Source of the DNA: Escherichia phage Bp4
Reading direction: 5' to 3' (one strand)
Sequence record: NC_024142.2
DNA length: 64,000 nucleotides
The translations under genes were made by a program, and so were the position numbers. The notes beneath the pieces are model-generated. The model was not told the DNA's origin and made no database searches. It worked only from the letters and a program-made list of their open reading frames with translations. Shown piece by piece: positions 24,896 through 43,586 of the stretch (positions are counted from its first letter, which is position 1; each line of letters begins with the position of its first letter).

Positions 24896-24955
24896 ACTGG
24901 CTTACTGTAGAGTAAGTTACCTATATACGATATAAGTTTGAACAGGAAACATGCT

Positions 24956-30900: not shown

Positions 30901-33900
30901 CTTAGATGACCGTATGCGTGTGCCAATGAGCATCTATGCTCCTTCACAGGCAGGTGTAGCAGGTATTCCATTTATGACCATCGGTACAGGTGATGGCATG
31001 ATGATGCAGACCCTTTCTACTATGAAAGGTGCTCCGAAGAATACCCTGAAAATCTTTGATGGTATGAACATTGGTATTAATGACATTACTGATGCAAGCC
31101 GTAAAGCTAATGAGGCTGTATATACTTCCTGGCAGGGTAACCCTATCAAGAATGTTTATGACTCCTTTGCTAAGTTCATGAAGAACGTAGACTTCAGCAA
31201 ACTGTCTGATGAAACCAAACAAGCTATCGCTAAATCTGCACTGGAATACGACCAACGTGAGGGTGCTACTGATGACCTGTTACGTGTTGGTGCTGAACAG
31301 ATTGAACGTAATCTGCGTAACATTGCTCTGGGTGTGGATATTCGTCATAAGGTAATGGACCAGGTACAGGTCACTGTTGACCAGATGGCTGCTGTTGGTG
31401 CTCCTTATGTGAACAACGGTAAAATCTCTCTGGAAGGTCTGACTGTAGACCAGCAAGTAGCTAAGCTGAACGAACTGTTTGATGCTGAATTAAACAAGCG
31501 TCGTGATGCAGTACGTGCTGCTAAAGCAGAACCAGTGAAAGAAGTGCCAGCAATGGAACAGGTCGGTCGTGTACTGAAGTCTGGTGTACGTCTGCTGTCT
31601 AATGCTGCCATTACTAAACTGGCTAAAGAGATGTCCCCTGAACAACAAGCAGTACTGAAAGAAATACAGAAATCTCTTGCTGCTAAAGACTATAAGGTTG
31701 TTTATGGTACGCCTTCTCAACTGGATGCCTATGCTATTGAGAAGAACATTACTCGTCCAGCACCGGAAGATATTGAAGCTGCTGAAGCAGGTAATGCATA
31801 TGGCTGGACTAACTTTGAAGATAAAACCATCTACTTAGTTACCCCTTCCTTAGAGACTCTGGTTCATGAATTGGTACATGCCTCTACTTTTGAATCTGTA
31901 CTAGCTCACTACGAGGGTACTCCTAACGAAGCAGTCCAGAATATTGAAGACCTGATGAACCAGTTCCGTGCTCTTGATGTTAAGAATGAATCTCCGGCAG
32001 TACGTGAAGCATATGCCGATGCACTCAATACCATTAATGGCCACTTGTCCAATGGCTTTATTGAACCAGCAATGGCTAAAGCTGCTGCACTGAATGAGTA
32101 CATGGCTTGGGGTTTAACTAACCGTGAACTTATAAGTAAGCAGAAGAAAACCACTGCACTTAAAACTATGGTTCAGGCTGTATATGAAGCAATCAAACGT
32201 CTGGTATTCGGACGTAAGAAAGCTCCTGCTAATGCAGATGATATGTTCTCTGGCTTACTGTTTAACTCTGCTGTAGTAATGCGTGGGCAGGCTCCTACTG
32301 CTGCTGTAGCCAAAGATACTACCTTGTTCCATAACAAAGCATACGGTGACAATACTCGTCTGGAAGAGCTAGGGAAAACCTTCGATAAGCTGATTACTAA
32401 CTACATTGGTTCAGAACCAGTACAGCAAGTAATTCGTAAAGGTAAGTTCTCTGATGCAGTAGTAAAAGCAACTAAAGTAACTCGTGATGTTCAGGCTCAT
32501 GGCTTCACCATGAATATGCAGGAACAGCGTCTCTTCACTAACATTGTTGCTGCACTAGCTACTGAGGCTGCTATTAACCCTGCTGCTATGGCTCGTGCAC
32601 AGGAATACTACACGCATGTTACTAAGAACCTGACTGTTGAAGCGTTCATGGCTGACCCGGATAGTACTAACCCTGCTGACCGTTACTATGCACAGCAGAA
32701 GTTCGATACCATCATGGGTGCTAATAACATTGAGTTTGATGCACAGGGTCGTTCTTCCTTACTACCTACCTTTGTTGGTCTGGTAATGGTAAGTGAAGAA
32801 GTACGTAAGGTGCTGGCTGATATTTCTGTTATGAAAGCAGATAAAAAATCTGGCAATACTGTTGATGCAATGCTGACTAACATCGGTACTGCTGCAATGG
32901 CTAGTCTGAATGCTCGTGTAGCAGGTGATACTAAAGCCACTAACGTACAGGAAGGTATGGATGCACTGGCTCAGACAATCATGCAGACCAGTCTTAACGC
33001 AGAATCCTTCTATGATTCCGTTGCTACTCCTACCGGTAATGCTATCGACCGTGCTAACCAGTATTTGGTGGACTCTATTGATGCATTGTCTACCCGTGCT
33101 TTAGAAGGTGCTCGTGAAGTTGCAGCTAATACCAAGAATCCATTGGTCAAAGGTGCTGCTCATGCTGCACAACTGGTAGCTGCTATTGCTACAGAGAAGA
33201 ATGGTGCAATCGTAGCCGAAGGTGTTATGGCTGCAATGAACCAGGGTAAAGTATGGCAACCTTTCCATGACCTGGTTAATGACATAATTGGACGTACTAA
33301 GAGCAATGCTTCTGTATATGATTTGATTAAAGCAGTACGAGCACAAGTGCAGGCTGACCGTCAACAGTTCCGTGAACACTTGCCTACCACTATCGCATCC
33401 AAGTTCAGCCGTAAACTGACTAATGATGAGTGGAAAGCAATGCATACCGGTATGGGTAAAACTGACTTAGCTGTTCTGCGTGACACTATGTCTTTGGATG
33501 AAATCCGTGACCTGCTGACTGACCAGAAGAATGTTGACCGTGAGGTTAATAAACTGGAAGCAGATTTGCAGAAACAAGCAGGACGTAACTGGCCCCTGAT
33601 TAACCGTAAATCTAAGCAACTGGCTCAGTATATGATTAACGGTACAGTCGGTAATAACCTGCTGCGTAATGCTACTGCAATTTCTCGTTTACTGGGTGAA
33701 CGTAAGACTACACGTTCTGTTGTAGATGTAGCTCAGCTGGATAAACTGATTACCCTGTATGCACTGGAAGCAATGAGTAAGACTGACCGTGAGGTGTTAT
33801 CTTCACTGGCTCAGACAGAAGTTGAAGGCATGGACTTTGCTACTTCTTACCTGGTTGGTCAGCGTAAAGACGAAATGGCTAAAGCCAAGTCTGATAGCCG

Positions 33901-35668
33901 TGCAACCTTGAACCAGTACAAAGGATACATCCCAACTGAGAACAAACAGGGTGTTAACCTGATTGTTGCTGAAGATAATCAGTTTGCTGATTTGATTGAG
34001 AAATCCTATGTACGTCTTGGTACTTATCAGGGTAGCTCTGCTAACCGGGGTCCAGCACGTAGTTACTACTTTGCACCGGTACAGGCACAGGCTCCGTTCT
34101 CACAAGGTATCCTACAGAACGTTCGAAATACTGCTGGTGGTGTAGACCTTGGTACAGGCTTTACGATGGGAACCATGGTAGCTGGTCGTATTACTGACAA
34201 GCCTTCCGTAGACCGTATCACTAAAGCACTGGCTCGTGGTGAACGTGGCAATGAACCACTGCTGCCTGTATATGATGCTAATGGTAATGTAGTTGCTTAT
34301 GAGCAATCTATTGACCCTAACATGCTGAAGCACATTGAGGGTGAGAATCATCTTGCTCGTGCAATCGGTGTATGGCGTGGTCGTCAGGTGGAAGAAGCTA
34401 AGGCTCAGCGTTTCAACGATATGCTAATTGAGAACCTGCATAGCATGTATGAGAACGACATTAAGATGTCTGCTTCTAATAAGTCCCAGTACGTTAACCT
34501 TCTTGGTTCTAAACTGGACCCAGTAACTGCCGATGCCCTTAAGCTGATGAACAGTGAAACTCGTCAGAAAGCAGAAAGTCTCTTTGGTCCAGGTGAATTG
34601 TGGGTGCGTCGTGACATGCTTAATGATGCTCTGGGTTATCGTGCAGCTTCTGTAGGAGATGCCTGGTCTGGTAATTCTCGTTGGTCACCAGAAACACTGG
34701 ATACCTTCAAGAAAGCTATGTTGGGTGTATTCGGCAACCGTGCCTATAAGTATGTAATGGGTGGTGAGAACCTGGTTCAGAACTTAGTTAAAGAAGCTAA
34801 GACCCTGATTGTAGTTAAGTCAGTAGTTGTACCTGCTGTTAACTTCCTGGCTAACCTTTACCAGATGGTTGCTCGTGGTGTACCTGTTAAGAACATTGCT
34901 AAGAGCATCCCACAAAAAACTGCTGAGATTAACCAGTATCTGAAATCTCGTCTGCGTCAGGTAGATGCAGAAGCAGAATTACGTGCAGCTACTAACCCGA
35001 ACCAGATTCGTAAACTCAAGGCTGAGATTCAGTCCATCTCTGATAGCCATAAACGTTTGAGTATCTGGCCTCTGTTGGAAGCTGGTGAGTTCTCTTCAAT
35101 TGCAGATGCTGGTATTGGCCGTGATGACATCCTGATTACTGAAGGTAAACTCCACGAATACATGGAAAAGCTGGCTGATAAGCTGCCTAAGTCTGTTCGT
35201 AACGCAGGTCGCTATGCACTTATCACTAAGGATACTGCTCTCTTCCAGGGTATTCAGAAGACGGTTGAGTACTCTGACTTTATTGCTAAAGCAATCATCT
35301 ATGATGAACTGACTCAGCGTAAAGGTAAGACTCGTGAAGAAGCACTGGGGCGTGTAACGGAAGAGTTCATTAACTATGACCGTCTGCCTGGTCGATTCCG
35401 TGGGTATATGGAAAGTGTTGGTTTGATGTGGTTCTACAACTTTAAGATTCGTTCTGCAAAAGTTGCAGTGTCCATGATTCGTAATAACCCAGTACATGCT
35501 GCTATGGCTATGTTGGCTCCAACCCCTACCATGTTTGGTAACGTTGGTCTTCCTATTCAGGACAACATCTTTAGTATTGCTGCACAAGGCAATCTTGGTT
35601 ACTCCTTTGGTTTCGGTCAAGGCTTACGTGCCCACAACCTGAACCCTTGGCTCAACCTTACTAACTAA
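24956..35668 (+). CDS. giant virion-encapsidated RNA polymerase (N4 vRNAP-like)
   Basis: Single uninterrupted ~3570-aa ORF in the virion module; size and position are diagnostic of N4-like phages; ATG at 24956 with RBS AGGAAAC. Confidence 0.8.
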   Translation: MSTFDRLAGFADSITNAKQVDVSTATSQKQAAQGQSPFQLTPENAYNLQTGRVGNLGIGAFEPGSLQADFTQASPLEIINKYGNEQGLQILNSRANAADVVRQDLSKQRTNAEAFGDTLSGVGLGVANTLGGIAALGTGLVNDNAGASIASGLDWLNKGVHNLQSDALNARRNVVQNQNVISAQENEKLYKQDIAKGESELVASLSRIGRDAYDSVANTLSNDMAATDGLAEGVGSFFTGGPLIRGVSALGKVMVGGDKAVKGITLAAELGYRPARIAQTAGRVAAPAIAIGGMEAGGAYQQTANEIMEMPFSELAAKSPVYQQHIKDGLSPEEARRQTASETGITAAGLTAPVAALTAPLVSKFELNPLKVGSLAGAGSNMLRETVEEGIQSGTSQFAQNKAIQGNVDAERDLLKGVGEQTGLGALYGFGSAGVAQAPGATVKAAGAAVGPAVRTTLAGASLAGKALAKVASPITNILVQRGEEVAKRNEQASPVSDATVNAAAQEATAQAEQAQATVQEAVDAMDISPEEKAAATQYAADLTQAMKFDPVELEQTNPAIREAVSGSTNRVEAIQKMADLVNTAEDPNVQMEAAIQMYDNIMSMDSFINRDPGALANLEQGSPAAAIVDQFSGLMANVQNTPKVLRAFRAIHSMIQEQAEAGKLKATEEANQAQANNIAMAADVSPEVLDADSVNMVLKHASEGKITLGNRQRAALQSAAALLQGAREFDAKAEELGLRPQDIVSKQIKTDESRSNEGQYSALQHAKRIRSAYNSGNFDLASAYLSDFMKFAQHMQNKVGALNEHLISGNADKNKSVHYQALSPSREWVRSRTGLGVNPYDTKSVKFAQQVALEAKTVADIANALATAYPELNVSHVKVTSLDSRLNKPAAQVVKEFRQGGLDATQSQQTNEPVNQVDETPALVQEDTTTVQPKDKLVVENKTAPTKETSPKAEEVSTTESERDAYVKENTISQEILNKNGDRRESPWLFADGTVVGSNGDHISLSDVFGHDGYRDMSLDTGAIRSTFYKGSEQPFVSLQLFDNQKLTAEQFNTVQSFVEANNALIQVGVDTSGRNTNNVEKEEVSLAQLKADYTVGGKPLSEMETVFPVYNNDKTPNQFIKSFSLPEEPKSRTIGSESPLTDVKKALSSAARFEAFTQKENNALTSDVIKRYQDLFEFGETLKTTLSDRLAKFLANKNVGKRFAEGTEANRWVGGKLLNIVEKDGDTFKFNDQLLETAVLAGLQWRLTATQNAAVKDMKDVAAITGVEASLLPEGILADFENAQTLVEATNSLAQKIESYWGLNRNPNAPLGYTKGIPMAMATEILSSLIEMGEVKESMLDVSEIDPESNKTVGLYTIEKLDDNDAINKFPTAIEETVLLEPVEKLYLGDDIPSVAQTQLRNPAVKNTPEQKAALKAEQATEFRVHMPMVNFYEALGRDNILELMGAGALNPELLNVNTAKSLEGKNLSVSMAYDSLFGVINQIKEQENGLDTPIHYGYNMTRVGRMQMLGKNNPQSSKLVREAILPTFSTIDLSNENSQTFSDFQLGLAQALGIKVHKMSREVMSDELTKALEGKLKPAVDMMVEFDKSGHLPADAVDILKTSLGNDKSFVALMALMEYARYLNSDDRANFNTPLYVEADGVTNGPINAMVLMTGGKFTSDWIKNTAKGGLFFGKAGKTMNEHHSHEDSVDLYEASTNSLQQALNELRNNYRNNVPVTNQMKHLQKLMDLFIKDFNLNEDGTLDLKRGIAKNPLTITIYGSGARGIAGKMVSAITDTIYERFSDVLQARAADPSISPAMAMFGKEAASEADAQAMLDTFLTSMEALTGNVPVMRKGELSIQQVDGALTGKLDPQKFTVSGNALKNLQENMLHLFVEPMRTGIRNTVGEGLMYSTENLQKATQIQSLVLQDMFQQRVQEKLAEKEKDPTWKKGDFLTQKELNEIQASLSPLAPMIETGSQTFYIAGSENTDVANQVLATNLDDRMRVPMSIYAPSQAGVAGIPFMTIGTGDGMMMQTLSTMKGAPKNTLKIFDGMNIGINDITDASRKANEAVYTSWQGNPIKNVYDSFAKFMKNVDFSKLSDETKQAIAKSALEYDQREGATDDLLRVGAEQIERNLRNIALGVDIRHKVMDQVQVTVDQMAAVGAPYVNNGKISLEGLTVDQQVAKLNELFDAELNKRRDAVRAAKAEPVKEVPAMEQVGRVLKSGVRLLSNAAITKLAKEMSPEQQAVLKEIQKSLAAKDYKVVYGTPSQLDAYAIEKNITRPAPEDIEAAEAGNAYGWTNFEDKTIYLVTPSLETLVHELVHASTFESVLAHYEGTPNEAVQNIEDLMNQFRALDVKNESPAVREAYADALNTINGHLSNGFIEPAMAKAAALNEYMAWGLTNRELISKQKKTTALKTMVQAVYEAIKRLVFGRKKAPANADDMFSGLLFNSAVVMRGQAPTAAVAKDTTLFHNKAYGDNTRLEELGKTFDKLITNYIGSEPVQQVIRKGKFSDAVVKATKVTRDVQAHGFTMNMQEQRLFTNIVAALATEAAINPAAMARAQEYYTHVTKNLTVEAFMADPDSTNPADRYYAQQKFDTIMGANNIEFDAQGRSSLLPTFVGLVMVSEEVRKVLADISVMKADKKSGNTVDAMLTNIGTAAMASLNARVAGDTKATNVQEGMDALAQTIMQTSLNAESFYDSVATPTGNAIDRANQYLVDSIDALSTRALEGAREVAANTKNPLVKGAAHAAQLVAAIATEKNGAIVAEGVMAAMNQGKVWQPFHDLVNDIIGRTKSNASVYDLIKAVRAQVQADRQQFREHLPTTIASKFSRKLTNDEWKAMHTGMGKTDLAVLRDTMSLDEIRDLLTDQKNVDREVNKLEADLQKQAGRNWPLINRKSKQLAQYMINGTVGNNLLRNATAISRLLGERKTTRSVVDVAQLDKLITLYALEAMSKTDREVLSSLAQTEVEGMDFATSYLVGQRKDEMAKAKSDSRATLNQYKGYIPTENKQGVNLIVAEDNQFADLIEKSYVRLGTYQGSSANRGPARSYYFAPVQAQAPFSQGILQNVRNTAGGVDLGTGFTMGTMVAGRITDKPSVDRITKALARGERGNEPLLPVYDANGNVVAYEQSIDPNMLKHIEGENHLARAIGVWRGRQVEEAKAQRFNDMLIENLHSMYENDIKMSASNKSQYVNLLGSKLDPVTADALKLMNSETRQKAESLFGPGELWVRRDMLNDALGYRAASVGDAWSGNSRWSPETLDTFKKAMLGVFGNRAYKYVMGGENLVQNLVKEAKTLIVVKSVVVPAVNFLANLYQMVARGVPVKNIAKSIPQKTAEINQYLKSRLRQVDAEAELRAATNPNQIRKLKAEIQSISDSHKRLSIWPLLEAGEFSSIADAGIGRDDILITEGKLHEYMEKLADKLPKSVRNAGRYALITKDTALFQGIQKTVEYSDFIAKAIIYDELTQRKGKTREEALGRVTEEFINYDRLPGRFRGYMESVGLMWFYNFKIRSAKVAVSMIRNNPVHAAMAMLAPTPTMFGNVGLPIQDNIFSIAAQGNLGYSFGFGQGLRAHNLNPWLNLTN

Positions 35669-35675
35669 ATGAAAA

Positions 35676-35705
35676 AGCCCCTCTAATGAGGGGCTTTTAT
35701 TTTTA
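35676..35705. terminator. bidirectional intrinsic terminator
   Basis: 8-bp stem AGCCCCTC/GAGGGGCT, loop TAAT, A-run upstream and TTTTATTTTT downstream; between convergent genes. Confidence 0.75.
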
Positions 35706-36194
35706 CTGAGCTAACACCCAATCTTCTGCTAATACATCTGATTGAGATGGAACCCATGGCATAAACTGGTTATCAACGGTTTTAATACCCAGCCAATCCC
35801 GTTTCTCACAAACGGTATTTTCATGTTTATCCATGGCCCAATTTTCACCAGATACTAAGGTGATATACATTCCTTTTCCGTTCCAACCTTTACGGGTCAT
35901 TCTAAAGCCTGATTTGAGAATCTCTACTGCATGACCAAAGGTACAACCTTTTTCTACGTCACGGTATGCAGCTTCGAATGTAGCTTTAGGTGACCAGCTA
36001 ATATAGCCACGGAATTGGGGATGGTTGGACTTAGAGTCTGGATACTCGACTAAGTAGCCTTCTTCTAGCGGGTCTTCATCTGCTGGTACATCCCAACCAC
36101 GAAGTTTGCAGTATGTTTCTTTGCTCATCGGGAAACCATTTACACACTTGGTTCCAATGTAGTTGGTGAAATGGACTTTAATTTCTTCTGACAT
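35703..36194 (-). CDS. DUF2829/Tad2-like domain protein (candidate anti-Thoeris sponge) with N-terminal extension
   Basis: C-terminal ~80 aa: AVEILKSGFRMTRKGWNGKGMYITL … PWVPSQSDVLAEDWVL matches my recollection of the DUF2829 motif; start taken at MSEEIKV with GAGG RBS. Confidence 0.45.
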   Translation of the reverse strand: MSEEIKVHFTNYIGTKCVNGFPMSKETYCKLRGWDVPADEDPLEEGYLVEYPDSKSNHPQFRGYISWSPKATFEAAYRDVEKGCTFGHAVEILKSGFRMTRKGWNGKGMYITLVSGENWAMDKHENTVCEKRDWLGIKTVDNQFMPWVPSQSDVLAEDWVLAQ

Positions 36195-36211
36195 AACTAC
36201 CTCAAATGAGA

Positions 36212-36240
36212 AAGCCCTCACTAGGAGGGCTTGTTTTGTT
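36212..36240. terminator. terminator-like hairpin between two minus-strand accessory genes
   Basis: AGCCCTC-ACTAG-GAGGGCT followed by TGTTTTGTTTT on plus and TTTCTCATTT on minus. Confidence 0.4.
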
Positions 36241-36312: not shown

Positions 36313-36693
36313 TCAAATTGTACAACCACCACCATCACAGGTATTGTTTTCTGCAAAGGAAGCCAAAGCTTTAGCAGTCTCTTCCTTCTCATGCAGTGCC
36401 TGACGTAGTAGGTAGCCCTCTAATTCCCAAATCTTATTGAATGCATTTTCATATGCATACTGGCGACCTAACTGCTCATCATAGATAGTTGGGTCTACGC
36501 AAGCAGATACACCTTCAACTTTAAAATTGTTTTCCAGAATGATAACACAATAGGTTACCAGACCCAGGTTAGCCAAATCATCTGCCGGGAGTGCAGAAGG
36601 ATCAACGAATGCAGATTTCACTGCATCAGCACCATTAAAATAGTAAACGCTCTTAATCTTAGCTTCGATTGCTTCTTTACTTACTGTTGCCAT
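36313..36693 (-). CDS. hypothetical accessory protein
   Basis: ORF with start at MATVSKEA; contains YYFNGADAV … ENAFNKIWELEGY; no confident family. Confidence 0.5.
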   Translation of the reverse strand: MATVSKEAIEAKIKSVYYFNGADAVKSAFVDPSALPADDLANLGLVTYCVIILENNFKVEGVSACVDPTIYDEQLGRQYAYENAFNKIWELEGYLLRQALHEKEETAKALASFAENNTCDGGGCTI

Positions 36694-36751
36694 TATTAGC
36701 CTCATAGAGTGGTTTGAATTTGTACTTAAGCATGATTGCGTTCATCAATAC

Positions 36752-36783: not shown

Positions 36784-37009
36784 AGTAGCTTTAACGCAGC
36801 TAACGAGGCTAGGCCAGTTAACTATTACCACCGGTGCTTGTACCAGCAAACAGGATTGATAGTCCGATAATAGTTAACTGTAATTGAGCATTATAGTCTG
36901 CTCATACTCACACCGTTAGGTATGTTTTCAATAATTAGAGTGCCGGACTGTCTCACCGGCATTGTCTTTAGAGTGCAATGCAATCAGGACTATGTTCTCT
37001 ATTAATAAG

Positions 37010-37083
37010 TACCCACTACTGGATTTGAACCAGTGACCTTCCGATTATTAGTCGGTTGCTTTCCCCGTCTAAGCTAAGTGGGC
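37010..37083 (-). tRNA. tRNA, canonical cloverleaf; anticodon loop CUAAUAA, isotype uncertain
   Basis: Hand fold: acceptor GCCCACU/AGUGGGU, D-arm GCUU/AAGC, anticodon stem with one mismatch, T-arm ACUGG-UUCAAAU-CCAGU; no encoded CCA. Confidence 0.5.
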
Positions 37084-37457
37084 ATAAATGAGTGAGTCAT
37101 GCCAGACTTTAACTGGCTCCTTCTTCGCAATCCTTACATACCCCTACATAATTATTGCGTTAAGCTTATATTGTTTAAGTTTAAGTGAAGGCGTTCTTGC
37201 TGACTCATAATAGGGTGGGCGTTTGACGAATGACTAGTTCGTTACTACCCGTTTGCCATAAGTACCTGGCGACTTTGGTTTGAGGCGGGAGTCCGAGTCC
37301 TGTACAGCCTTACCGTTCACACATTGGCAGCGTATCTAGAATAGCACTTCCGGCAACTGGATTTAACTGTTACACCCCAAATCTGGTAGGGGCGTCCAGA
37401 AGTCTCATCTGGTACTTACGCCGTCGTATGGTTACGACTTACCCCCATAATCTTTCT

Positions 37458-37529
37458 AATTCAAAGTAGCACTGCTCCATGTTTGGCCTTTGAACTCCGG
37501 GATGGATTAGTGCAATGCTACTTTGAATT
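37458..37529. repeat. 14-bp perfect inverted repeat with 44-nt spacer
   Basis: AATTCAAAGTAGCA at 37458-37471 and TGCTACTTTGAATT at 37516-37529, abutting a tRNA-like 3' end. Confidence 0.6.
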
Positions 37530-37615
37530 GGTTACCAGTGAGGGATTCGAACCCCCGGTTGGAGTCTATAGCTTACCGCAGCAGCTCTCCAATCTAGCGG
37601 TGTCACACTTAGTCC
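37529..37615 (-). tRNA. tRNA-like element (T-arm, 3' acceptor strand and encoded CCA; no canonical 5' half found by eye)
   Basis: GGGGG-UUCGAAU-CCCUC then ACUGGUA-A-CCA; upstream region does not fold into D or anticodon arms. Confidence 0.3.
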
Positions 37616-37653
37616 AAACTTGAACATATCAAGCTATCTCGTGCAACTGATAA

Positions 37654-37719
37654 TTGGTTCCGGCGTCTGGACTCGAACCAGAACACTTATGCCGTGCACG
37701 ACACTAGTACCTACACCGG
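37654..37719 (-). tRNA. tRNA-like minihelix (7-bp acceptor, T-arm, CCA; about 10 nt too short for a cloverleaf)
   Basis: Acceptor UCCGGUG/CGCCGGA, T-arm UCUGG-UUCGAGU-CCAGA, A-CCA; internal 29 nt have no stems. Confidence 0.3.
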
Positions 37720-37795
37720 AATTAATTGCCAGGGATTCCACCTGGTCCATCTGTTTTTATAGTCACTCAGATATCGTCTGGACTGTAGGCATGGG

Positions 37796-37871
37796 TGGGA
37801 ATCGAACCCACAAACCATTCAGCACTGTAGCCTCACGCTCTACCTATTTGAGCTATCACACACCATTGATT
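37796..37871 (-). tRNA. tRNA-like element (canonical D-arm and T-arm; acceptor and anticodon stems not pairable)
   Basis: D-arm UAGCUCAAAUAGGUAGAGC and T-arm GUGGG-UUCGAUU-CCCAC present. Confidence 0.3.
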
Positions 37872-38156
37872 AACTCCCCGTTTCTAATACACGGACGAGG
37901 ACACTCCATGGTCGTTTGATAATCAGGACGACTCACTCCCGACTGACGCTTGGCTTATTAGGCTGCCATCAGAACAACATCATCGTTTGCATTTATGTTA
38001 TTGGTTCGTTTCTAAAAAACCGCATAATCGCTTACGAAAACTATCAAAGAGTACACTAAGCACAGGTAGCTACCCTGCCGTCTTCTCCACCTACACCGGC
38101 TACAGTGTAAACCTCCGCACGTTAGCTTAATGTACTCATTGATAGGATGTCAGTAG

Positions 38157-38226
38157 GTCGGGGGCTGGATTCGAACCAGCGAGAGAAGTAGCGACCATCT
38201 GCACATGCCTACGTGCTACCTCGACC
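38157..38226 (-). tRNA. tRNA-like element (acceptor with one mismatch, D-arm, T-arm; anticodon region 2-3 nt short)
   Basis: GUCGAGG/CCCCGAC, D-arm GCAC-GUAGGCAU-GUGC, T-arm GCUGG-UUCGAAU-CCAGC. Confidence 0.3.
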
Positions 38227-38811: not shown

Positions 38812-39045
38812 ATTAGTCTCAGTTGAACCAATGGACTTCGGAGAGTATTAAAGTCCACTGGTTCGGTTGTTGTTGTTACTCTGGCGGCTTGTCACCACCG
38901 TGTTTACCACTGCATTTCCACAGGATAATGACAGTGATGATAAAAGCTATGTATGGAGCCGACACGTCTATAATCCTGACCAGTAGTAGCATTAGGACTA
39001 TAAACACTACCACACCTAGCAGCAGCTTCTGAGCCACCTACCAGA

Positions 39046-39486
39046 TTAACTACGTTTAAGGCCAGCGAACAGTGAAGGCTTAGTAGCAGGTTTCTCTGCT
39101 GGTTCTTCAGCCTTAGCCTCTTCCTGCACAACTTCTTCTTGTGCTTCTGGTTCAGATACTGCTTCTTCTTCAGGTTCCGGCGTAGAACTCTCGTTCTGAC
39201 CACCAGTAGAGGTCTGGGTTTCTTCTACCTTTACCTCTTCAACTACTTCTTCCGGCTCTGGTTCTACCGGACGATGTTTAGCTTCCTGTGGGTTCTTACG
39301 AGAACGACGAGTTTTCTTCTCTACTCCCACGGGTGGAGTATCTTCATGAACCTCTTCGTTGATACCAACGGAAGCTGTACCGTCTGCATTGATGACAATA
39401 TTGATGTCACCAGCAAGATTGATTTGATCATCGACATAAGCCTGTACAGCAGCTTCTACTTCGGACTGGTTCAAAATGATTTGCAT
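39046..39486 (-). CDS. acidic protein with Glu/Pro-rich tail
   Basis: C-terminal ~70 aa are E/P/V-rich (EPEPEEVVEEVKVEETQ…). Confidence 0.5.
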   Translation of the reverse strand: MQIILNQSEVEAAVQAYVDDQINLAGDINIVINADGTASVGINEEVHEDTPPVGVEKKTRRSRKNPQEAKHRPVEPEPEEVVEEVKVEETQTSTGGQNESSTPEPEEEAVSEPEAQEEVVQEEAKAEEPAEKPATKPSLFAGLKRS

Positions 39487-39487
39487 G

Positions 39488-40042
39488 TTACGCCTTTATT
39501 AAATTAAGGAGGTTTTGGAAAGCTGGGAGATTTACACCAGCATGGATTGCACCGATTGCATCAGCTAAGTGCTCATTCTTATTCAGAAGTTTGCCCTTCT
39601 TATCTGTGAGCCAGTTGGCTTCAGGATAGATGGCATGAGCAGCACGAATCATCGTGTCCTTAGATGCAGTTTTATCACCGACCAGTGCAAGTTTGTTTTC
39701 AATTGGGGATACTTCAAAGATTGGACAACCCAATGCACGAAATGCACCTATTAATCCTACGCATACGCCATAGGATTTCATACCGTTAGCAGACTGAGAG
39801 CCTACTGGTACTTCTACGAATACTGCTTTAGCAGACCGTAACCATTCCTCACAACCAAGAAACAAATCGTGAGCGGCTTGTATATCTTTGGAGTTGGTTC
39901 GAACTTGTTTGTTGTGGTCAACTTCAGTTTGAACCAGTTTAAGTTCGACCTGCTCGAAGACGCCGGACTCAATGTCCAGCATCCCACGAGCTAAACCCCA
40001 ATTGCGGAGACTAATGTCTGCACCGACAATTGGGATTTTCAT
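39488..40042 (-). CDS. RuvC-like Holliday junction resolvase
   Basis: N-terminal IVGADISLRNWGLA, FVEVP, C-terminal HLADAIGAIHAG, paralleling RuvC catalytic motifs. Confidence 0.7.
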   Translation of the reverse strand: MKIPIVGADISLRNWGLARGMLDIESGVFEQVELKLVQTEVDHNKQVRTNSKDIQAAHDLFLGCEEWLRSAKAVFVEVPVGSQSANGMKSYGVCVGLIGAFRALGCPIFEVSPIENKLALVGDKTASKDTMIRAAHAIYPEANWLTDKKGKLLNKNEHLADAIGAIHAGVNLPAFQNLLNLIKA

Positions 40043-40845
40043 TAACGTTTACCGAACAGTGATTTACCACTAGCAGGAGTAGTACCAGTGCCAGCACCTG
40101 CACCTGGTTTAGGAGGCAAGCCACCTTTACCATTACCACCAGCAGAACTCTTAGTCTTGTCACGAGTTTTGCCTTTGTTCTTTTCCAGCCATGCTGCATA
40201 GAATACAGCCAGTTCTGGGGTTAGTTCTTTTTCAGCCTTCTCTGCTTCCTGAGCCTCGACGACTGTGACCAGCAGTTCCGGGTGAAACACTTTCTGAATC
40301 TCGTTTACTTCACGAGTTTCGTCAGAGTCTACATAACCGTTGTCGCCTTTAACCTGCTTGTTTTCCAGAACTTTTTCCAGAGCGAAGGTAACAGTCTGGC
40401 CTACCAGGTCAACTGGAACCATGACAGATTTATTAACTTCTGCTTTAGCGTCGTAGTCGTAGACTTTAACAATCTTCTCTTCGAAGTCTGCTTCAGGCAG
40501 TTCAGTACCAGTAGCCATCAGCATCATGTCGTTAATGACAGTGTAGCCAGGCAGGAAGTACTCTTTACCATTTTTCTCGTAAGTCGGCTTGTTGCCTTTA
40601 GCATTACCAGAAGTGAAGTACACCTGAGCACGGAACTCGCCAGCAGGCACGCCATCAGAGTTTTTCAGGTCTTCAATAATTAACTGCATCCAGTCTGCAC
40701 CAGAATCAGCTTTGCCTACGTAAGCTACTTTTACAGTACCAGTGTAGATATCGGTTTCTTTTGCACCGAAGCCACCACCACCCAGAGAGTCTTTAGCAGC
40801 TTCAACGTTTTTGGTTTTTTCTTTCAGATTACTGAACAATGACAT
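40042..40845 (-). CDS. single-stranded DNA-binding protein (N4 SSB-like, by size and position)
   Basis: 267 aa with Gly-rich C-terminal tail, next to resolvase and ATPase. Confidence 0.45.
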   Translation of the reverse strand: MSLFSNLKEKTKNVEAAKDSLGGGGFGAKETDIYTGTVKVAYVGKADSGADWMQLIIEDLKNSDGVPAGEFRAQVYFTSGNAKGNKPTYEKNGKEYFLPGYTVINDMMLMATGTELPEADFEEKIVKVYDYDAKAEVNKSVMVPVDLVGQTVTFALEKVLENKQVKGDNGYVDSDETREVNEIQKVFHPELLVTVVEAQEAEKAEKELTPELAVFYAAWLEKNKGKTRDKTKSSAGGNGKGGLPPKPGAGAGTGTTPASGKSLFGKR

Positions 40846-40884: not shown

Positions 40885-41637
40885 TTAAGCGTAGTATTCA
40901 GCCAGGTGGTCTAAGAGTTTCTGGGCATCGTTATCAATGTAAGTCTCGGACTTATCGAACATACCCATAGGAGAACGAAGTCGTTTACCAACAGACTTCT
41001 TGGTTGGACGGGTCTGGAATACATGTTTATAGCCTAAATCACGTTCTTCCTCCGTAATTTCAAGCATCTTGTTTCCATACTTCTCCAGTTCTTTAATGTC
41101 TACACGTTCTGCGTAAACCACTGTAGAGAAGTAGGCTTCAAGCCCGTTATTCTTCAGAGAGCCTTTCACTGGGATGAACGTTTTCATCACACCAGCAGCT
41201 TCATCCAGTTCGTCTTTAGCATGAGCAGTAATGATTACTGGCTTACCAAACTTAACGACTTTTTGTTGCAGCAGTATCTTAAAGAACTGTGCAAAATCCC
41301 CCCATGCCTTTTGCGTGTTTGCAGAAGGCAGAACATACTGGGATTCCAGCATATCCATCATAAAAGTTGCTGAGTCAATGATGATACCATCAACATCATC
41401 TGCCATTTCTCCACCAGGAGATGCAACATCAAATGCTTCCCAGATTTGGTATGGGTCTTCGATGTTGTAGGTATTGAACTTGTTACGGAAAGGTAGACGT
41501 TTACCTGCCTCAGTGTTCAGATAGAGCCAGCGTTCCTGGTTCCTGATGTTACGCAGTGATGCTGATTTACCACTCGCTGAGAATCCTGCAATCAGGATTA
41601 GCTGAGTGTTCATATCATTGGGAATTACTTCGGACAT
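40885..41637 (-). CDS. P-loop ATPase (RecA/Sak4-like core)
   Basis: Walker A LILIAGFSASGKS and Walker B-like IIIDSATFMMD. Confidence 0.55.
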   Translation of the reverse strand: MSEVIPNDMNTQLILIAGFSASGKSASLRNIRNQERWLYLNTEAGKRLPFRNKFNTYNIEDPYQIWEAFDVASPGGEMADDVDGIIIDSATFMMDMLESQYVLPSANTQKAWGDFAQFFKILLQQKVVKFGKPVIITAHAKDELDEAAGVMKTFIPVKGSLKNNGLEAYFSTVVYAERVDIKELEKYGNKMLEITEEERDLGYKHVFQTRPTKKSVGKRLRSPMGMFDKSETYIDNDAQKLLDHLAEYYA

Positions 41638-41693: not shown

Positions 41694-43586
41694 TTATTTG
41701 CCAGCGAAGCGTTTAGCCACGGTGACCATTACGGTTGCATTCAATTCATCATCTGGTAATGGATTAGCCAGTTTCTTATTGAATGAGTGGACGGCTTGCT
41801 GTACTTGGGCAAAATCCCAACCACTGTCAACCAATGCCAGTGCGTACTTAATCATTTGATTATTACGATTACCGGTAGCAATACGACTAGCGAACCAACG
41901 CTCCAGATTATCCAACGACTGTACTTCCTTCATCTGGTTCTGGAACTGCTCGTTCTTACTAGTACGAGGAATAAAGTCACGCACGTCCAACAGATTTGCT
42001 TCAAGATTGTAATGATAGGAACCAGTCTCACAGGACATCCATTTCTTGGCTCGCTGGTTAGCAGATTCATCCGTTTCGAACGGTAGCCAAGACATAACGT
42101 TATTCATAAACTCTTTGTATTCCTCAGTGTCGAGGTGTAACTCATAGTTCATTGGAATAATCAGTCGGAAGCGGTTCTCTTCATCAGAATGACGTTTAGT
42201 GGTATAGGTCATGAACTTATATTCCTTCATCAGTTCATGGCACGTATGCAGTGGTACTCCACCATCACAGTCAATAACAATCATGTTAAATCCTGGAATA
42301 ACGTTCTCTTCAGAACGATGTCCATTCTTCATGTGATGGTTTACCCAGTGCATACCGGGAGCTTGGGTTAATACATGCAACTGGTCGAACGGTACACGTT
42401 CACCAATGTAGTCATAAGCAAAGCTATCACTATATGCCACTATCATCTCATTGATGTCAGTTTCTTTCAGAGTCTCACCACGGAAGAACTCAATACCTTC
42501 ATTAAAAGTCTTCTTAATGATGATGTGCTGTTTGTAGCCCCATGCTGTAGCAAGAGTCATCATCTCATTACGAGCTGCATTGCCACTCTTATAGAATGGC
42601 AATGACTCCACCAAGTCAGCATGAGTTACTTCTTTACCTACAGAAGCAATGTATTTAGCCAGCTTCACATAAGCCTTCTCACGATTGAGGATTGTCTGGA
42701 ATGCTGCTCCAGATTCTTCTACAAGCAGAATTGCTTGTTTAAGGTGAGTCATCTCAATGAATGAACTCTGGTCAACAAACGCCAGTGCTCCTGCCAGTTT
42801 AAGTGCTTTGAAATAACGGTGGGAAATTTCAGCTTTACGAATTTCTTCGTGGTCAGCCATAGCTTCTGCTTGTTTCTCACAATCAATTTTGTAAGCAATC
42901 AGAGCAATACCCACTGCATCTTCCACAACCATCTTAAAACCAAACAGGTTTGGATCAGCCAGACTATGGAAATGGTTAGCCCACTTACCAAGAGTCTGTA
43001 CGTTATCTTGTTTAATCAAGTTACGGTAGATTTCTTCCGGGGTTAGTGTTGCATGTGCTCTTTTGTCTAAGTGACCAGTGGCAAACAGACAGCGACGTGC
43101 ATACCCTATATCAAGAAAGCCATAGAACTGGTCTTCAGTCTGACCACCATCCAGTAGCTTACTTGGTGTACCAAACAGCAGCAGGTTAGTTGGAGTTTTG
43201 CCATCCAATTCTTCACCACGAACGCTTTCAGCAGTATTCTTGGTTAGCTTCTGTTTTACTTTTCCCTGGTCATATAACTCCAGGAACAGGGTTAGTACAT
43301 CCATGTTAGCCAACAGGTTCGAACCAATTTCATCAATCTGAAGATTGATTGAACCACATCCAGCCATTAATAGTTTATGGCGTAGTTGTTTAACTGCTGG
43401 TGGAGTACCTGAGTCAAACGTAAACGGATATGCCCCTGCACGTTTATACTCTGCCTCAACTTTATCAAACTCTTCCTGCTGGTCAGTACCCTGCCGTGCA
43501 GAGCGTTCGTTAGCAATCTTCCATAGACGATCATTTGCAATGACGGGCATGGTGTCTTCCATAAAGCGTTTACGGAAGCCAGTCAT
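41694..43586 (-). CDS. primase-like replication protein (DxD motif)
   Basis: 630 aa, MIVIDCDGG resembles the hhhDhD primase motif; position in the replication module. Confidence 0.4.
   Translation of the reverse strand: MTGFRKRFMEDTMPVIANDRLWKIANERSARQGTDQQEEFDKVEAEYKRAGAYPFTFDSGTPPAVKQLRHKLLMAGCGSINLQIDEIGSNLLANMDVLTLFLELYDQGKVKQKLTKNTAESVRGEELDGKTPTNLLLFGTPSKLLDGGQTEDQFYGFLDIGYARRCLFATGHLDKRAHATLTPEEIYRNLIKQDNVQTLGKWANHFHSLADPNLFGFKMVVEDAVGIALIAYKIDCEKQAEAMADHEEIRKAEISHRYFKALKLAGALAFVDQSSFIEMTHLKQAILLVEESGAAFQTILNREKAYVKLAKYIASVGKEVTHADLVESLPFYKSGNAARNEMMTLATAWGYKQHIIIKKTFNEGIEFFRGETLKETDINEMIVAYSDSFAYDYIGERVPFDQLHVLTQAPGMHWVNHHMKNGHRSEENVIPGFNMIVIDCDGGVPLHTCHELMKEYKFMTYTTKRHSDEENRFRLIIPMNYELHLDTEEYKEFMNNVMSWLPFETDESANQRAKKWMSCETGSYHYNLEANLLDVRDFIPRTSKNEQFQNQMKEVQSLDNLERWFASRIATGNRNNQMIKYALALVDSGWDFAQVQQAVHSFNKKLANPLPDDELNATVMVTVAKRFAGK

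What the first reader, a model, noticed from the sequence alone, without database searches (positions are those of the whole stretch)
39046..39486. Highly acidic Glu/Pro-rich protein next to resolvase and SSB
The C-terminal half is a low-complexity acidic tail (EPEPEEVVEEVKVEETQTSTGGQNESSTPEPEEEAVSEPEAQEEVVQEEAKAEEPAE). Such tails occur in DNA mimics and in SSB-interacting proteins; its position directly upstream of the RuvC-like and SSB-like genes fits either.
Basis: inference. Interest (0 to 1): 0.4.

Follow-up and report, generated by a model that had tools for sequence, protein, structure and literature searches.

The report
Phage N4 gp47-type acidic adaptor protein
The acidic protein is real and is the counterpart of the uncharacterised phage N4 gene 47; it is a small folded head on a floppy acidic tether that ends in the same short docking peptide found at both ends of the phage's own single-strand-DNA-binding protein, and in related phages it is fused to the DNA-junction-cutting enzyme, so it most likely links that enzyme to the replication machinery.

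Summary
Observation confirmed. ORF 39046-39486 (minus strand, 146 aa, pI 4.35) has a 59-residue segment with 22 Glu and net charge -20. The window is a G7C-like (Gamaleyavirus, N4-like) coliphage and the ORF is the N4 gp47 orthologue. It lies downstream, not upstream, of SSB (gp45) and the RuvC-like gene (gp46), with tightly abutting reading frames.

No Pfam, NCBIfam, PDB or fold match exists. Across about 165 distinct homologues three features hold:
- a roughly 45-aa folded N-domain (MQIxLxQxEI...);
- a disordered, net-negative linker of variable length (1-157 aa);
- a C-terminal peptide, [RK]-[KP]-S-L-F-[GA]-[NG]-L-K.

The same peptide forms the SSB N-terminus (MSLFGNLK) and, shortened, its C-terminus (KSLFGKR). 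[quoted passage not shown]

In 52 of 56 distinct loci a junction resolvase (RuvC-like or RusA-like) sits between SSB and gp47. At least about 60, and probably all, of the 120 best-scoring protein clusters are in-frame RusA-gp47 fusions.

Best reading (confidence 0.4): a non-enzymatic adaptor or regulator that gives the resolvase an SSB-like docking tail. A folded DNA mimic is not supported. The binding partner is untested.

The parts
39046..39486 (-). gp47-family gene (146 aa plus stop): the acidic protein of the finding
   Evidence: ORF. PHROG 7641 E 6.5e-68. Identical to the proteins of phages ECBP1, PD38 and Bp4. G7C gp47 is annotated as similar to N4 gp47.
39352..39486 (-). Residues 1-45: small folded N-terminal domain (MQIILNQSEVEAAVQAYV..., one helix and a beta-hairpin)
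   Evidence: AF2 pLDDT is about 90, with helix 7-21 and strands 28-32 and 38-42. M1, G36 and F140 are invariant, and L5 and E9 nearly so, in 24 cluster representatives. The domain is kept in the RusA fusions.
39271..39351 (-). Residues 46-72: Pro-Pro-Val hinge and basic arm (KKTRRSRKNPQEAKHR, net +4)
   Evidence: Composition. R60, R63, K70 and H71 are invariant in the enterobacterial group. KHRPV is shared with N4. The arm is net positive in only about half of all homologues.
39094..39270 (-). Residues 73-131: disordered Glu/Pro-rich polyanionic linker (22 D/E in 59 residues, net -20)
   Evidence: pLDDT 48-58. The linker is net negative in 148 of 150 homologues and ranges from 1 to 157 aa.
39049..39093 (-). 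Residues 132-146: C-terminal docking peptide KPATKPSLFAGLKRS (SLF tip)
   Evidence: An [LIVM]F tip is present in 49 of 49 distinct gp47 homologues from viral contigs and in 118 of 120 RusA-family hits. F140 is invariant. pLDDT rises to about 70. Consensus is [RK]-[KP]-S-L-F-[GA]-[NG]-L-K-K-P-x-N.
39488..40042 (-). gp46: RuvC-like Holliday junction resolvase, immediately upstream with frames 1 nt apart
   Evidence: PHROG 159 E 3.3e-42. RefSeq annotations of relatives agree. There is no Pfam or PDB sequence hit, so the label rests on PHROG. A resolvase occupies this position in 52 of 56 distinct loci.
40042..40845 (-). gp45: N4-type single-stranded DNA-binding protein
   Evidence: PHROG 743 E 2.6e-89. 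Homologous to N4 SSB.
40045..40065 (-). SSB C-terminal tip KSLFGKR (short copy of the SLF motif after a Gly/Pro-rich linker)
   Evidence: Present in 48 of 49 distinct SSBs. [quoted passage not shown]
40822..40845 (-). SSB N-terminal arm MSLFSNLK (long copy of the SLF motif, followed by a Gly-rich hinge)
   Evidence: Consensus M-S-L-F-G-N-L-[KT] over 41 distinct SSB N-termini.
40885..41637 (-). gp44: Sak4-like ATPase/annealase, first gene of the conserved cassette
   Evidence: Pfam AAA_24 E 5e-11 and PHROG 124 E 1e-49. Found upstream of SSB in all 80 loci.
38876..39037 (-). Small conserved two-helix membrane ORF (53 aa), starting 8 nt downstream of the gp47 stop. It may belong to the same transcription unit.
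   Evidence: The same ORF is present but unannotated in N4 (frame 1). Function not examined.

Best explanation
The ORF is the Gamaleyavirus orthologue of phage N4 gp47. It is a non-enzymatic protein of the replication/recombination cassette Sak4 (gp44) - SSB (gp45) - junction resolvase (gp46) - gp47.

It has four parts:
- a folded N-terminal domain of about 45 aa;
- a short basic arm;
- a disordered polyanionic tether whose length is free to vary;
- a conserved C-terminal docking peptide, K-P-S-L-F-A-G-L-K-R.

The proposed mechanism is an adaptor or regulator of the Holliday junction resolvase. The N-domain keeps gp47 with the resolvase; in many other N4-like phages the whole module is covalently fused to a RusA resolvase. 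The flexible acidic tether presents the SLF peptide to the same pocket that the SSB's own N- and C-terminal SLF arms use. That pocket could be on the SSB core or on a partner shared with SSB, such as the Sak4-like gp44, the phage DNA polymerase, or host RNA polymerase beta'. Docking there would bring the nuclease to SSB-coated branched DNA. The acidic tether may also keep the nuclease's basic DNA-binding surface masked until it docks.

Shown here: the gene is real and conserved; the architecture; the disorder of the acidic part; the motif shared with both SSB termini; the synteny; and the RusA fusions.

Inferred: that the N-domain contacts the resolvase; that the three SLF copies bind one site; the identity of that site; and any effect on cleavage.
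For: Architecture:
- AF2 shows only residues 1-45 folded (pLDDT about 90), the acidic part at 48-58, and the tip rising to about 70.
- The same pattern appears in a natural fusion.

Conservation:
- The N-domain and F140 are invariant or nearly so in 24 cluster representatives.
- The linker is net negative in 148 of 150 homologues while its length varies from 1 to 157 aa.

Shared motif:
- An [LIVM]F tip occurs in 49 of 49 gp47 and 48 of 49 SSB proteins from distinct viral-contig loci.
- The stricter flanked form x-[LIVM]F-small occurs in only 8 of about 550 other ORFs in those loci, and none of those looks related.
- In the 64-kb window only gp45 and gp47 carry K-x-SLF near the end.
- Consensus of the SSB N-terminus is M-S-L-F-G-N-L-K. 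The gp47 tip is S-L-F-[GA]-[NG]-L-K and the SSB C-terminus is K-S-L-F-G-K-K.
- The length of sequence after the Phe correlates between SSB and gp47 across loci (rho 0.56, not corrected for phylogeny).

Resolvase link:
- The reading frames are 1 nt apart.
- A resolvase lies between SSB and gp47 in 52 of 56 distinct loci, whether RuvC-like (39) or RusA-like (13). Replacement of one resolvase type by the other keeps gp47 in place.
- Four of these loci are in-frame RusA-gp47 fusions.
- In the large protein set, 118 of the 120 best-scoring clusters keep the tip, and 59 also match a strict N-domain motif at residues 131-155.
- The fused partner has the RusA fold (E. coli RusA 2h8c/1q8r, Foldseek probability 1.00, TM 0.70-0.74).

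Precedent:
- The N4 SSB C-terminal residues are a functional interaction site acting through beta' (PMC4496689).
- The last six residues of phage HK620 SSB recruit its Sak4 (PMC5928155).
Against: - No interaction was tested. The tools gave no multimer prediction and no inter-domain contacts for the fusion model. Its pTM of 0.59 is only suggestive.
- The N-domain stays highly conserved even when covalently fused to RusA. That argues it does something more than hold on to the resolvase, such as oligomerisation or DNA binding.
- In four loci (L049, L054-L056) gp47 follows SSB directly, with no resolvase between them. The SSB link is therefore more universal than the resolvase link.
- The SSB N-terminal SLF segment could be an integral part of the SSB fold rather than a free arm. 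That was not modelled.
- The RuvC-like label of gp46 rests on PHROG and RefSeq annotation only.
Confidence: 0.4

Rival explanations
1. Late-transcription modulator. gp47 uses its SLF tip to bind the same site on host RNA polymerase beta' as the SSB activation tip. It would act as co-activator, competitor or timer of the middle-to-late switch, and the link to the resolvase would be secondary.
For: - The only experimentally assigned role of the N4 SSB C-terminal residues is activation of E. coli RNA polymerase through the conserved beta' C-terminus, independent of ssDNA binding (PMC4496689).
- The gp47 tip shares the S-L-F-G core with that terminus.
- The tip is conserved across phages of very different hosts. 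That fits a conserved host target.
Against: - The gp47 tip resembles the SSB N-terminus (SLFGNLK) more closely than the C-terminal activation tip.
- This reading gives no rationale for the recurrent fusion to RusA.
- It is not known which N4 SSB residues contact beta'; the primary papers were not available.
Confidence: 0.15
2. Resolvase inhibitor or chaperone. The polyanionic tail acts as a disordered DNA-like decoy that occupies the basic DNA-binding face of the resolvase, in trans or in cis in the fusions. This would keep a potentially toxic nuclease silent until late infection. The SLF tip would only fine-tune release.
For: - Net negative charge is the one property of the linker that is conserved (148 of 150 homologues).
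- The frames abut tightly and fusions exist.
- Acidic tails that fold back on DNA-binding surfaces are established for E. coli SSB, T7 gp2.5 and HMGB1 (general knowledge; the SSB case is cited in PMC5928155).
Against: - It does not explain why the tip and the N-domain are the most conserved parts.
- It does not explain why the tip copies the SSB termini.
- Some homologues have very short linkers of 1-15 residues (and the sequences).
Confidence: 0.15
3. Anti-restriction or anti-defence DNA mimic of the Ocr/ArdA kind. The acidic half would imitate B-DNA and titrate host nucleases or DNA-binding defence proteins.
For: - Extreme acidity (pI 4.35, net -20 over 59 residues).
- Phage DNA mimics are typically small and acidic (general knowledge).
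Against: - The acidic part is predicted disordered.
- It has no conserved length, spacing or sequence.
- There is no structural match to any known mimic.
- The gene lies in the replication cassette, tightly abutting the resolvase, and is fused to RusA elsewhere.
Confidence: 0.07
4. Host sliding-clamp recruiter. The SLF tips of gp47 and SSB are degenerate beta-clamp-binding motifs that tether the phage SSB and resolvase to DnaN.
For: - The tip core S-L-F equals positions 3-5 of the clamp-binding consensus QL[S/D]LF, and it lies in a disordered terminus as such motifs do (bioRxiv 10.64898/2026.05.27.728225).
- The clamp pocket is conserved across bacteria, which fits the wide conservation of the tip.
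Against: - Position 1 (Gln) is one of the three positions most important for clamp binding. It is Gln in only 2 of 49 gp47 tips and 0 of 48 SSB tips.
- Position 2 is usually K, P, R or Q rather than aliphatic.
- To my recollection, which I did not check here, N4 replication does not need most host replication proteins.
Confidence: 0.06
5. Structural or scaffolding protein of the virion.
For: Scaffolding proteins are often acidic and partly disordered (general knowledge).
Against: - No homology to any structural family.
- The gene is on the replication-gene strand, far from the morphogenesis genes.
- It is not mentioned in the recent structural and mass-spectrometry study of the N4 virion (PMC13434306).
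Confidence: 0.02

Closest known systems
Phage N4 gp47 (YP_950525) and G7C gp47; PHROGs 7641, 18842 and 27655 (all of unknown function)
   Same: Orthologous. They share the N-domain, the position after gp45 and gp46, the acidic linker and the C-terminal KPSLFAGLKR.
   Different: There is no functional difference to compare, because the family is uncharacterised. The N4 reference annotation hides the tip behind a 1-nt frameshift.
C-terminal tail of bacterial and phage SSBs (E. coli SSB ...DDDIPF; HK620 SSB ...NDYPPF; T7 gp2.5)
   Same: A disordered linker ends in a short hydrophobic or aromatic tip that serves as a protein-docking site, with acidic residues before the tip. The HK620 tip recruits Sak4 (PMC5928155). 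Some gp47 homologues end ...EEVTAQRPLFGN, which is very SSB-like.
   Different: The tail is carried on a small non-OB protein, or on RusA, not on the SSB. In the window protein the Phe is 6 residues from the end and is flanked by basic residues. The cognate N4-type SSB has a Gly/Pro-rich rather than acidic linker.
N4 SSB (gp45) C-terminal activation determinant
   Same: Shares the K-x-S-L-F-G core. It is encoded two genes upstream.
   Different: gp47 has no SSB core. Its tip is longer (SLFAGLKR) and matches the SSB N-terminus better. No role in transcription has been shown.
RusA Holliday junction resolvase (E. coli RusA, PDB 1q8r and 2h8c)
   Same: In many N4-like phages the gp47 module is the C-terminal extension of a protein with the RusA fold.
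   Different: The window protein has no nuclease domain. Its neighbouring resolvase is RuvC-like, and the two are separate polypeptides.
Clamp-binding and PIP-box tails of repair nucleases (for example the C-terminal PCNA-binding tails of archaeal and eukaryotic nucleases)
   Same: The same logic applies: a nuclease is tethered to a replication hub by a terminal short linear motif on a disordered tail (general knowledge).
   Different: The motif does not satisfy the bacterial clamp-binding consensus at positions 1 and 2. The hub is unidentified.
DNA-mimic proteins (Ocr, ArdA)
   Same: Small and strongly acidic.
   Different: Those are rigid folded mimics. Here the acidic part is disordered and not conserved in sequence.

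Membership tests
N4 gp47 family (PHROG 7641/18842) | N-terminal MQI[TI]LxQxE[IV]xxA domain | tested here: met
   PHROG 7641 E 6.5e-68, full length. Alignments A1 and A6.
N4 gp47 family (PHROG 7641/18842) | Position downstream of the N4-type SSB and the junction resolvase in a Schitoviridae genome | tested here: met
   A resolvase lies between SSB and gp47 in 52 of 56 loci, and gp47 follows SSB directly in the other 4.
N4 gp47 family (PHROG 7641/18842) | Net-negative disordered linker plus C-terminal [LIV]F tip | tested here: met
Folded DNA-mimic proteins (Ocr/ArdA type) | Stable fold displaying carboxylates in a DNA-like array | tested here: not met
   The acidic region has pLDDT 48-58 and no secondary structure. 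Its length varies from 1 to 157 aa. No fold match.
Folded DNA-mimic proteins (Ocr/ArdA type) | Binding and inhibition of restriction or DNA-binding enzymes | not testable with these tools
   Needs biochemistry.
SSB-type C-terminal interaction tail | Intrinsically disordered linker preceding the tip | tested here: met
SSB-type C-terminal interaction tail | Acidic residues followed by a hydrophobic or aromatic residue at the extreme C-terminus (the free carboxylate of the last Phe) | tested here: inconclusive
   The acidic run is present. In the window protein F140 is followed by AGLKRS. In short homologues the Phe is 1-3 residues from the end.
SSB-type C-terminal interaction tail | Tip-dependent binding to partner proteins | not testable with these tools
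   Precedents only.
Bacterial beta-clamp-binding motif (Q-phi-x-L-F; QL[S/D]LF) | Leu-Phe at positions 4-5, Ser or Asp at position 3 | tested here: met
   S-L-F in most tips. Consensus taken.
Bacterial beta-clamp-binding motif (Q-phi-x-L-F; QL[S/D]LF) | Gln at position 1 and an aliphatic residue at position 2 | tested here: not met
   Gln at position 1 in 2 of 49 gp47 tips and 0 of 48 SSB tips. Position 2 is mostly K, P, R or Q.
Holliday junction resolvases (RuvC/RusA) | Nuclease fold with catalytic acidic residues in the protein itself | tested here: not met
   gp47 has only a 45-aa domain with no nuclease match. The RusA fold belongs to the fusion partner in other phages.
Virion structural or scaffolding proteins | Homology to a known structural family, or presence in virions | tested here: not met
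   No homology. Not mentioned in the N4 virion study. Virion presence itself was not tested.

The most novel reading that the evidence does not exclude
The SLF peptide is a family-wide docking code of N4-like phages. It is present three times in the cassette: at the SSB N-terminus, at the SSB C-terminus and at the gp47 or RusA C-terminus. All three copies would compete for one pocket, and that pocket could include the conserved C-terminal region of host RNA polymerase beta'. gp47 would then couple resolution of branched replication intermediates to the SSB-dependent switch to late transcription. That would make it a so far unrecognised regulatory node of the N4 programme.
Probability: 0.12. 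Interest if true: 0.7.

Novelty: new variant of a known kind. Interest (0 to 1): 0.45.

Why it matters
N4 and its relatives (Schitoviridae) are a model for phage transcription control. How the N4 SSB C-terminus activates host RNA polymerase is not resolved in any source read here.

The same short peptide turns out to sit on a second conserved protein, on the SSB N-terminus, and on RusA resolvases in other lineages. That turns an anonymous "hypothetical protein" into a concrete, testable hypothesis: a shared docking motif connecting SSB, the junction resolvase and possibly the host polymerase.

It also gives a simple annotation rule for hundreds of uncharacterised proteins in N4-like phages, based on the N-domain, the acidic tether and the SLF tip. 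And it corrects the reference annotation of N4 gp47.

The practical impact is moderate. No new enzymatic activity or defence function is implied.

Tried and rejected
Family and structure look-ups that gave nothing:
- Pfam and NCBIfam gave no family for gp47. The one NCBIfam hit, a short-chain dehydrogenase at 16 bits against a cut-off of 290, is noise.
- Foldseek of the AF2 model against PDB and BFVD gave nothing significant apart from its own family, Klebsiella phage KP8.
- A profile of the N-domain against PDB sequences gave a best hit to the N-terminus of YfiA/RaiA at E 0.27. That is not significant and is only a hint at a beta-alpha start.
- Per-member Pfam scans of the N-domain gave only scattered weak hits.

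Searches that were uninformative:
- The first homology search returned 120 near-identical Gamaleyavirus proteins and so gave no diversity. The representative-library search showed the family is narrow at phmmer reach, with 24 clusters.
- The N-domain profile search of the 5.8-billion set returned only 35 short proteins because few candidates shared words with the query.
It worked after the alignment was split into two groups.
- The sigma-70 promoter scan found no more sites than in shuffled sequence (7 versus 7.5), which is expected for genes transcribed by a phage polymerase. Terminator-like sites were enriched (9 versus 2.9 in shuffles), and none bears on gp47.

Literature:
- No paper on N4 gp47 function was found. 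The "gp47" hits refer to differently numbered genes in other phages.
- No essentiality data for N4-like gp47 were found in three genome-wide phage screens.
- The primary N4 SSB paper (Choi et al. 1995) is not held. The Miller et al. papers were not looked up.

Ideas considered and dropped:
- An SPKK or AT-hook-like basic arm as a universal feature. It is net positive in only about half of homologues.
- The antisense ORF 39139-39507 (+). It is an artefact of the low-complexity GAA-rich coding strand.
Full report
**What is there**

The window is a G7C-like (Gamaleyavirus, Schitoviridae, N4-like) coliphage. The 2.4 kb around the finding are 99.9% identical to Escherichia phage PD38 and 98.6% identical to ECBP1.

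The finding's ORF lies on the minus strand at 39046-39486 and encodes 146 aa. The quoted acidic sequence is present. Residues 73-131 hold 22 Glu/Asp, 7 Pro and only 2 Lys/Arg, giving net charge -20. Whole-protein pI is 4.35. No ORF of at least 100 aa in the window is more acidic over a 59-residue stretch, and only one equals it.

The ORF is a real gene. It matches PHROG 7641 over its full length (E 6.5e-68). tblastn finds it in 67 phage records. Its G7C counterpart is annotated gp47, 'similar to gp47 of N4'.

- 39488-40042 matches the PHROG family of RuvC-like resolvases (E 3e-42).
- 40042-40845 matches the N4-type SSB family (E 2.6e-89).
- 40885-41637 is a Sak4-like ATPase, and 41694-43586 is the primase.

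All of these genes are on the minus strand. The acidic gene is therefore downstream, not upstream, of SSB and the resolvase. The frames abut tightly: the SSB stop overlaps the gp46 start by one base, and one base separates the gp46 stop from the gp47 start.

**Anatomy**

No Pfam, NCBIfam or PDB-sequence match exists for gp47.

The exhaustive representative-library search found only 24 clusters at E <= 1e-3. Aligning them shows a constant plan:
- a conserved N-terminal segment, MQI[TI]LxQxE[IV]...DG;
- a Pro-rich hinge with a basic patch;
- a region that aligns poorly and differs in length, but is rich in Glu, Ala, Pro and Thr;
- a sharply conserved C-terminal peptide, KPSLFA[GN]LKR, with F140 invariant.

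AlphaFold2 on this alignment folds only residues 1-45 (pLDDT about 90; one helix and a beta-hairpin). The acidic half scores 48-58. Confidence rises again to about 70 at the tip. Foldseek against PDB and BFVD found nothing significant apart from the protein's own family.

I assembled about 165 distinct homologues from viral contigs and the large protein set. In the 150 where the parts could be delimited:
- the linker is net negative in 148, and its length ranges from 1 to 157 residues;
- the basic arm is net positive in only about half.

The universal features are therefore the small N-domain, a polyanionic disordered tether and the [LIV]F tip.

**The tip is shared with the SSB, three times over**

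In the window, only gp45 (...ASGKSLFGKR) and gp47 (...TKPSLFAGLKRS) end with K-x-SLF.

I fetched 78 N4-like loci from IMG/VR. Together with the G7C and N4 regions already held, that gave 80 loci to scan.
- Among distinct pairs, 49 of 49 gp47 homologues and 48 of 49 SSBs carry an [LIVM]F within the last residues.
- The stricter flanked form x-[LIVM]F-small occurs in only 8 of about 550 other ORFs in the same loci, and none of those looks related.
- The number of residues after the Phe correlates between the two proteins (Spearman 0.56, not corrected for shared ancestry).

Unexpectedly, the SSB N-terminus carries the longer form of the same peptide. Position-by-position consensus over 41 distinct SSBs is M-S-L-F-G-N-L-[KT]. 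For 166 gp47 tips it is [RK]-[KP]-S-L-F-[GA]-[NG]-L-K-K-P-x-N. For SSB C-termini it is [RK]-K-S-L-F-G-K-K.

In the window SSB the N-terminal peptide (MSLFSNLK...) is followed by a Gly-rich hinge (LGGGGFG). The C-terminal peptide follows a Gly/Pro-rich linker. Both therefore look like flexible arms, although I could not model the SSB.

Published work on N4 says that the C-terminal residues of its SSB are essential for activating E. coli RNA polymerase at late promoters. That activation goes through the conserved C-terminus of beta', while ssDNA binding is dispensable (review PMC4496689). In phage HK620 the last six SSB residues recruit the cognate Sak4 (PMC5928155). These are precedents for such tips being docking sites. 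They do not show what the gp47 tip binds.

**The link to the resolvase**

In 56 distinct gp47 loci:
- 52 have a junction resolvase between SSB and gp47;
- 39 of those are RuvC-like and 13 are RusA-like, so replacement of one resolvase type by the other left gp47 in place;
- four of the RusA-like cases are in-frame fusions (L008, L016, L051, L052), joined directly at the conserved MQI... start of the module.

Searching the 5.8-billion protein set with these fusions returned 392 hits at E <= 0.001. The best 120 clusters (231-367 aa) occur on contigs that include many of about 70-76 kb, including Sinorhizobium phage ort11 and Rhizobium phages. Of these 120:
- 118 keep the C-terminal tip;
- 59 also match a strict N-domain motif at residues 131-155;
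- the 120-sequence alignment shows the module residues M139, Q140, I141, E147, I148 and A151 as nearly invariant, so most if not all are fusions.

AlphaFold2 of one fusion gave pLDDT about 97 for the N-terminal 130 residues, about 83 for the gp47 domain, below 55 for the linker and about 72 for the tip. Foldseek matched the N-terminal part to E. coli RusA (2h8c and 1q8r, probability 1.00, TM 0.70-0.74).

Two caveats apply. In four loci (L049, L054-L056) gp47 follows SSB directly with no resolvase between. And the N-domain remains strongly conserved even in the fusions, so it probably does more than hold on to the nuclease.

**Most likely mechanism**

gp47 is a non-enzymatic adaptor or regulator of the junction resolvase. 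Its folded head stays with the nuclease, non-covalently here and covalently in the RusA lineages. The polyanionic tether acts as a flexible spacer and possibly as a decoy for the nuclease's basic DNA-binding face. The SLF tip plugs into the same site as the SSB's own arms.

That site may be on the SSB core. Alternatively it may be on a shared partner: the Sak4-like gp44, the phage polymerase, or host beta'.

What is shown here: the architecture, the disorder, the motif sharing, the synteny and the fusions. What is inferred: every binding step. I put this at about 0.4.

**Rivals**

- A modulator of the SSB-dependent late-transcription switch acting on beta' (0.15).
- A decoy-type inhibitor or chaperone of the resolvase (0.15).
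- A classical DNA mimic (0.07). This is contradicted by the disorder, the lack of any conserved charge pattern and the genomic context.
- A host clamp recruiter (0.06). S-L-F matches positions 3-5 of the clamp-binding consensus QL[S/D]LF. The Gln at position 1 is one of the three positions most important for binding, and it is present in only 2 of 49 gp47 tips and no SSB tip.
- A structural or scaffolding protein (0.02). There is no homology and no mention in the N4 virion study.

**Comparison with what is known, and novelty**

The family is already catalogued as hypothetical (N4 gp47; PHROGs 7641, 18842 and 27655). I found no paper on its function.

It works most like the C-terminal interaction tails of SSBs, which have a disordered linker, acidic residues and a hydrophobic tip. 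Here the tail is carried on a separate small protein or on a resolvase, and the Phe is not the last residue in this phage. It is not a member of the DNA-mimic, clamp-binding-motif or resolvase families by the features tested.

I rate it a new variant of a known kind, with interest 0.45. The shared three-copy SLF motif and the RusA fusions are, as far as I could find, unreported. They make the old question of what the N4 SSB tip does more tractable. No new activity has been demonstrated.

**Side results**

- The reference N4 record encodes a frameshifted gp47 C-terminus (...KKYRKKRLKNQYKPNLLCLQV). The +2 frame gives ...AKPSLFAGLKR. At least seven close relatives carry 523 nt where N4 has 522. 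The PMBT57 protein ends ...EAKEPVQAKPSLFAGLKR.
- A 53-aa two-helix membrane ORF follows gp47 (38876-39037). It is conserved but unannotated in N4.

Noticed in passing
L002:7679-8113 (phage N4 reference, NC_008720 31678-32112); L081:101-544: The annotated C-terminus of N4 gp47 is out of frame by 1 nt relative to its relatives. The +2 frame, and the PMBT57 orthologue, end in ...AKPSLFAGLKR. At least seven Enquatrovirus records have 523 nt where N4 has 522. This is either a sequencing error or a mutation in the laboratory strain.
   Followed up: yes
window 38876-39037 (-): A 53-aa ORF with two hydrophobic helices (MAQKLLLGVVVFIVLMLLLVRIIDVSAPYIAFIITVIILWKCSGKHGGDKPPE) starts 8 nt after the gp47 stop. 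A roughly 80% identical ORF is present but not annotated in N4.
   Followed up: partly
window 40822-40845 (-), and the SSB N-termini in loci L001-L070: The N-terminus of the N4-type SSB (MSLFGNLK, followed by a Gly-rich hinge) carries the same peptide as the gp47 C-terminus. The SSB therefore has an SLF motif at both ends. I could not model the SSB structure.
   Followed up: partly
L049, L054, L055, L056: In these metagenomic N4-like lineages gp47 is short (about 100-155 aa, ending ...PLFG or ...SLFAS). It follows SSB directly, and no resolvase was detected anywhere in the fetched locus.
   Followed up: partly
window 37009-38226 (-): ARAGORN calls three tRNA genes in the 1.9-kb ORF-poor stretch downstream of gp47. 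Their anticodons are unusual: Ile-aat, Cys-aca and Ala-cgc.
   Followed up: no
window 35703-36221 (-) and 36313-36705 (-): The N4 gp49-like ORF carries a Tad2-like (Thoeris anti-defence 2) domain (PF11195, E 3.7e-23). The ORF next to it carries Phage_gp49_66 (PF13876).
   Followed up: no
window 15717-16937 (+): This 406-aa ORF is on the strand of the giant virion RNA polymerase ORF (24938-35668). It has a stretch as acidic as gp47 (22 D/E in 59 residues) and could be a scaffolding-type protein.
   Followed up: no
window 39139-39507 (+): This 122-aa antisense ORF runs opposite gp47. It has a low-complexity Phe/Leu/Arg-rich translation and is an artefact of the GAA-rich coding strand, not a gene.
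   Followed up: no
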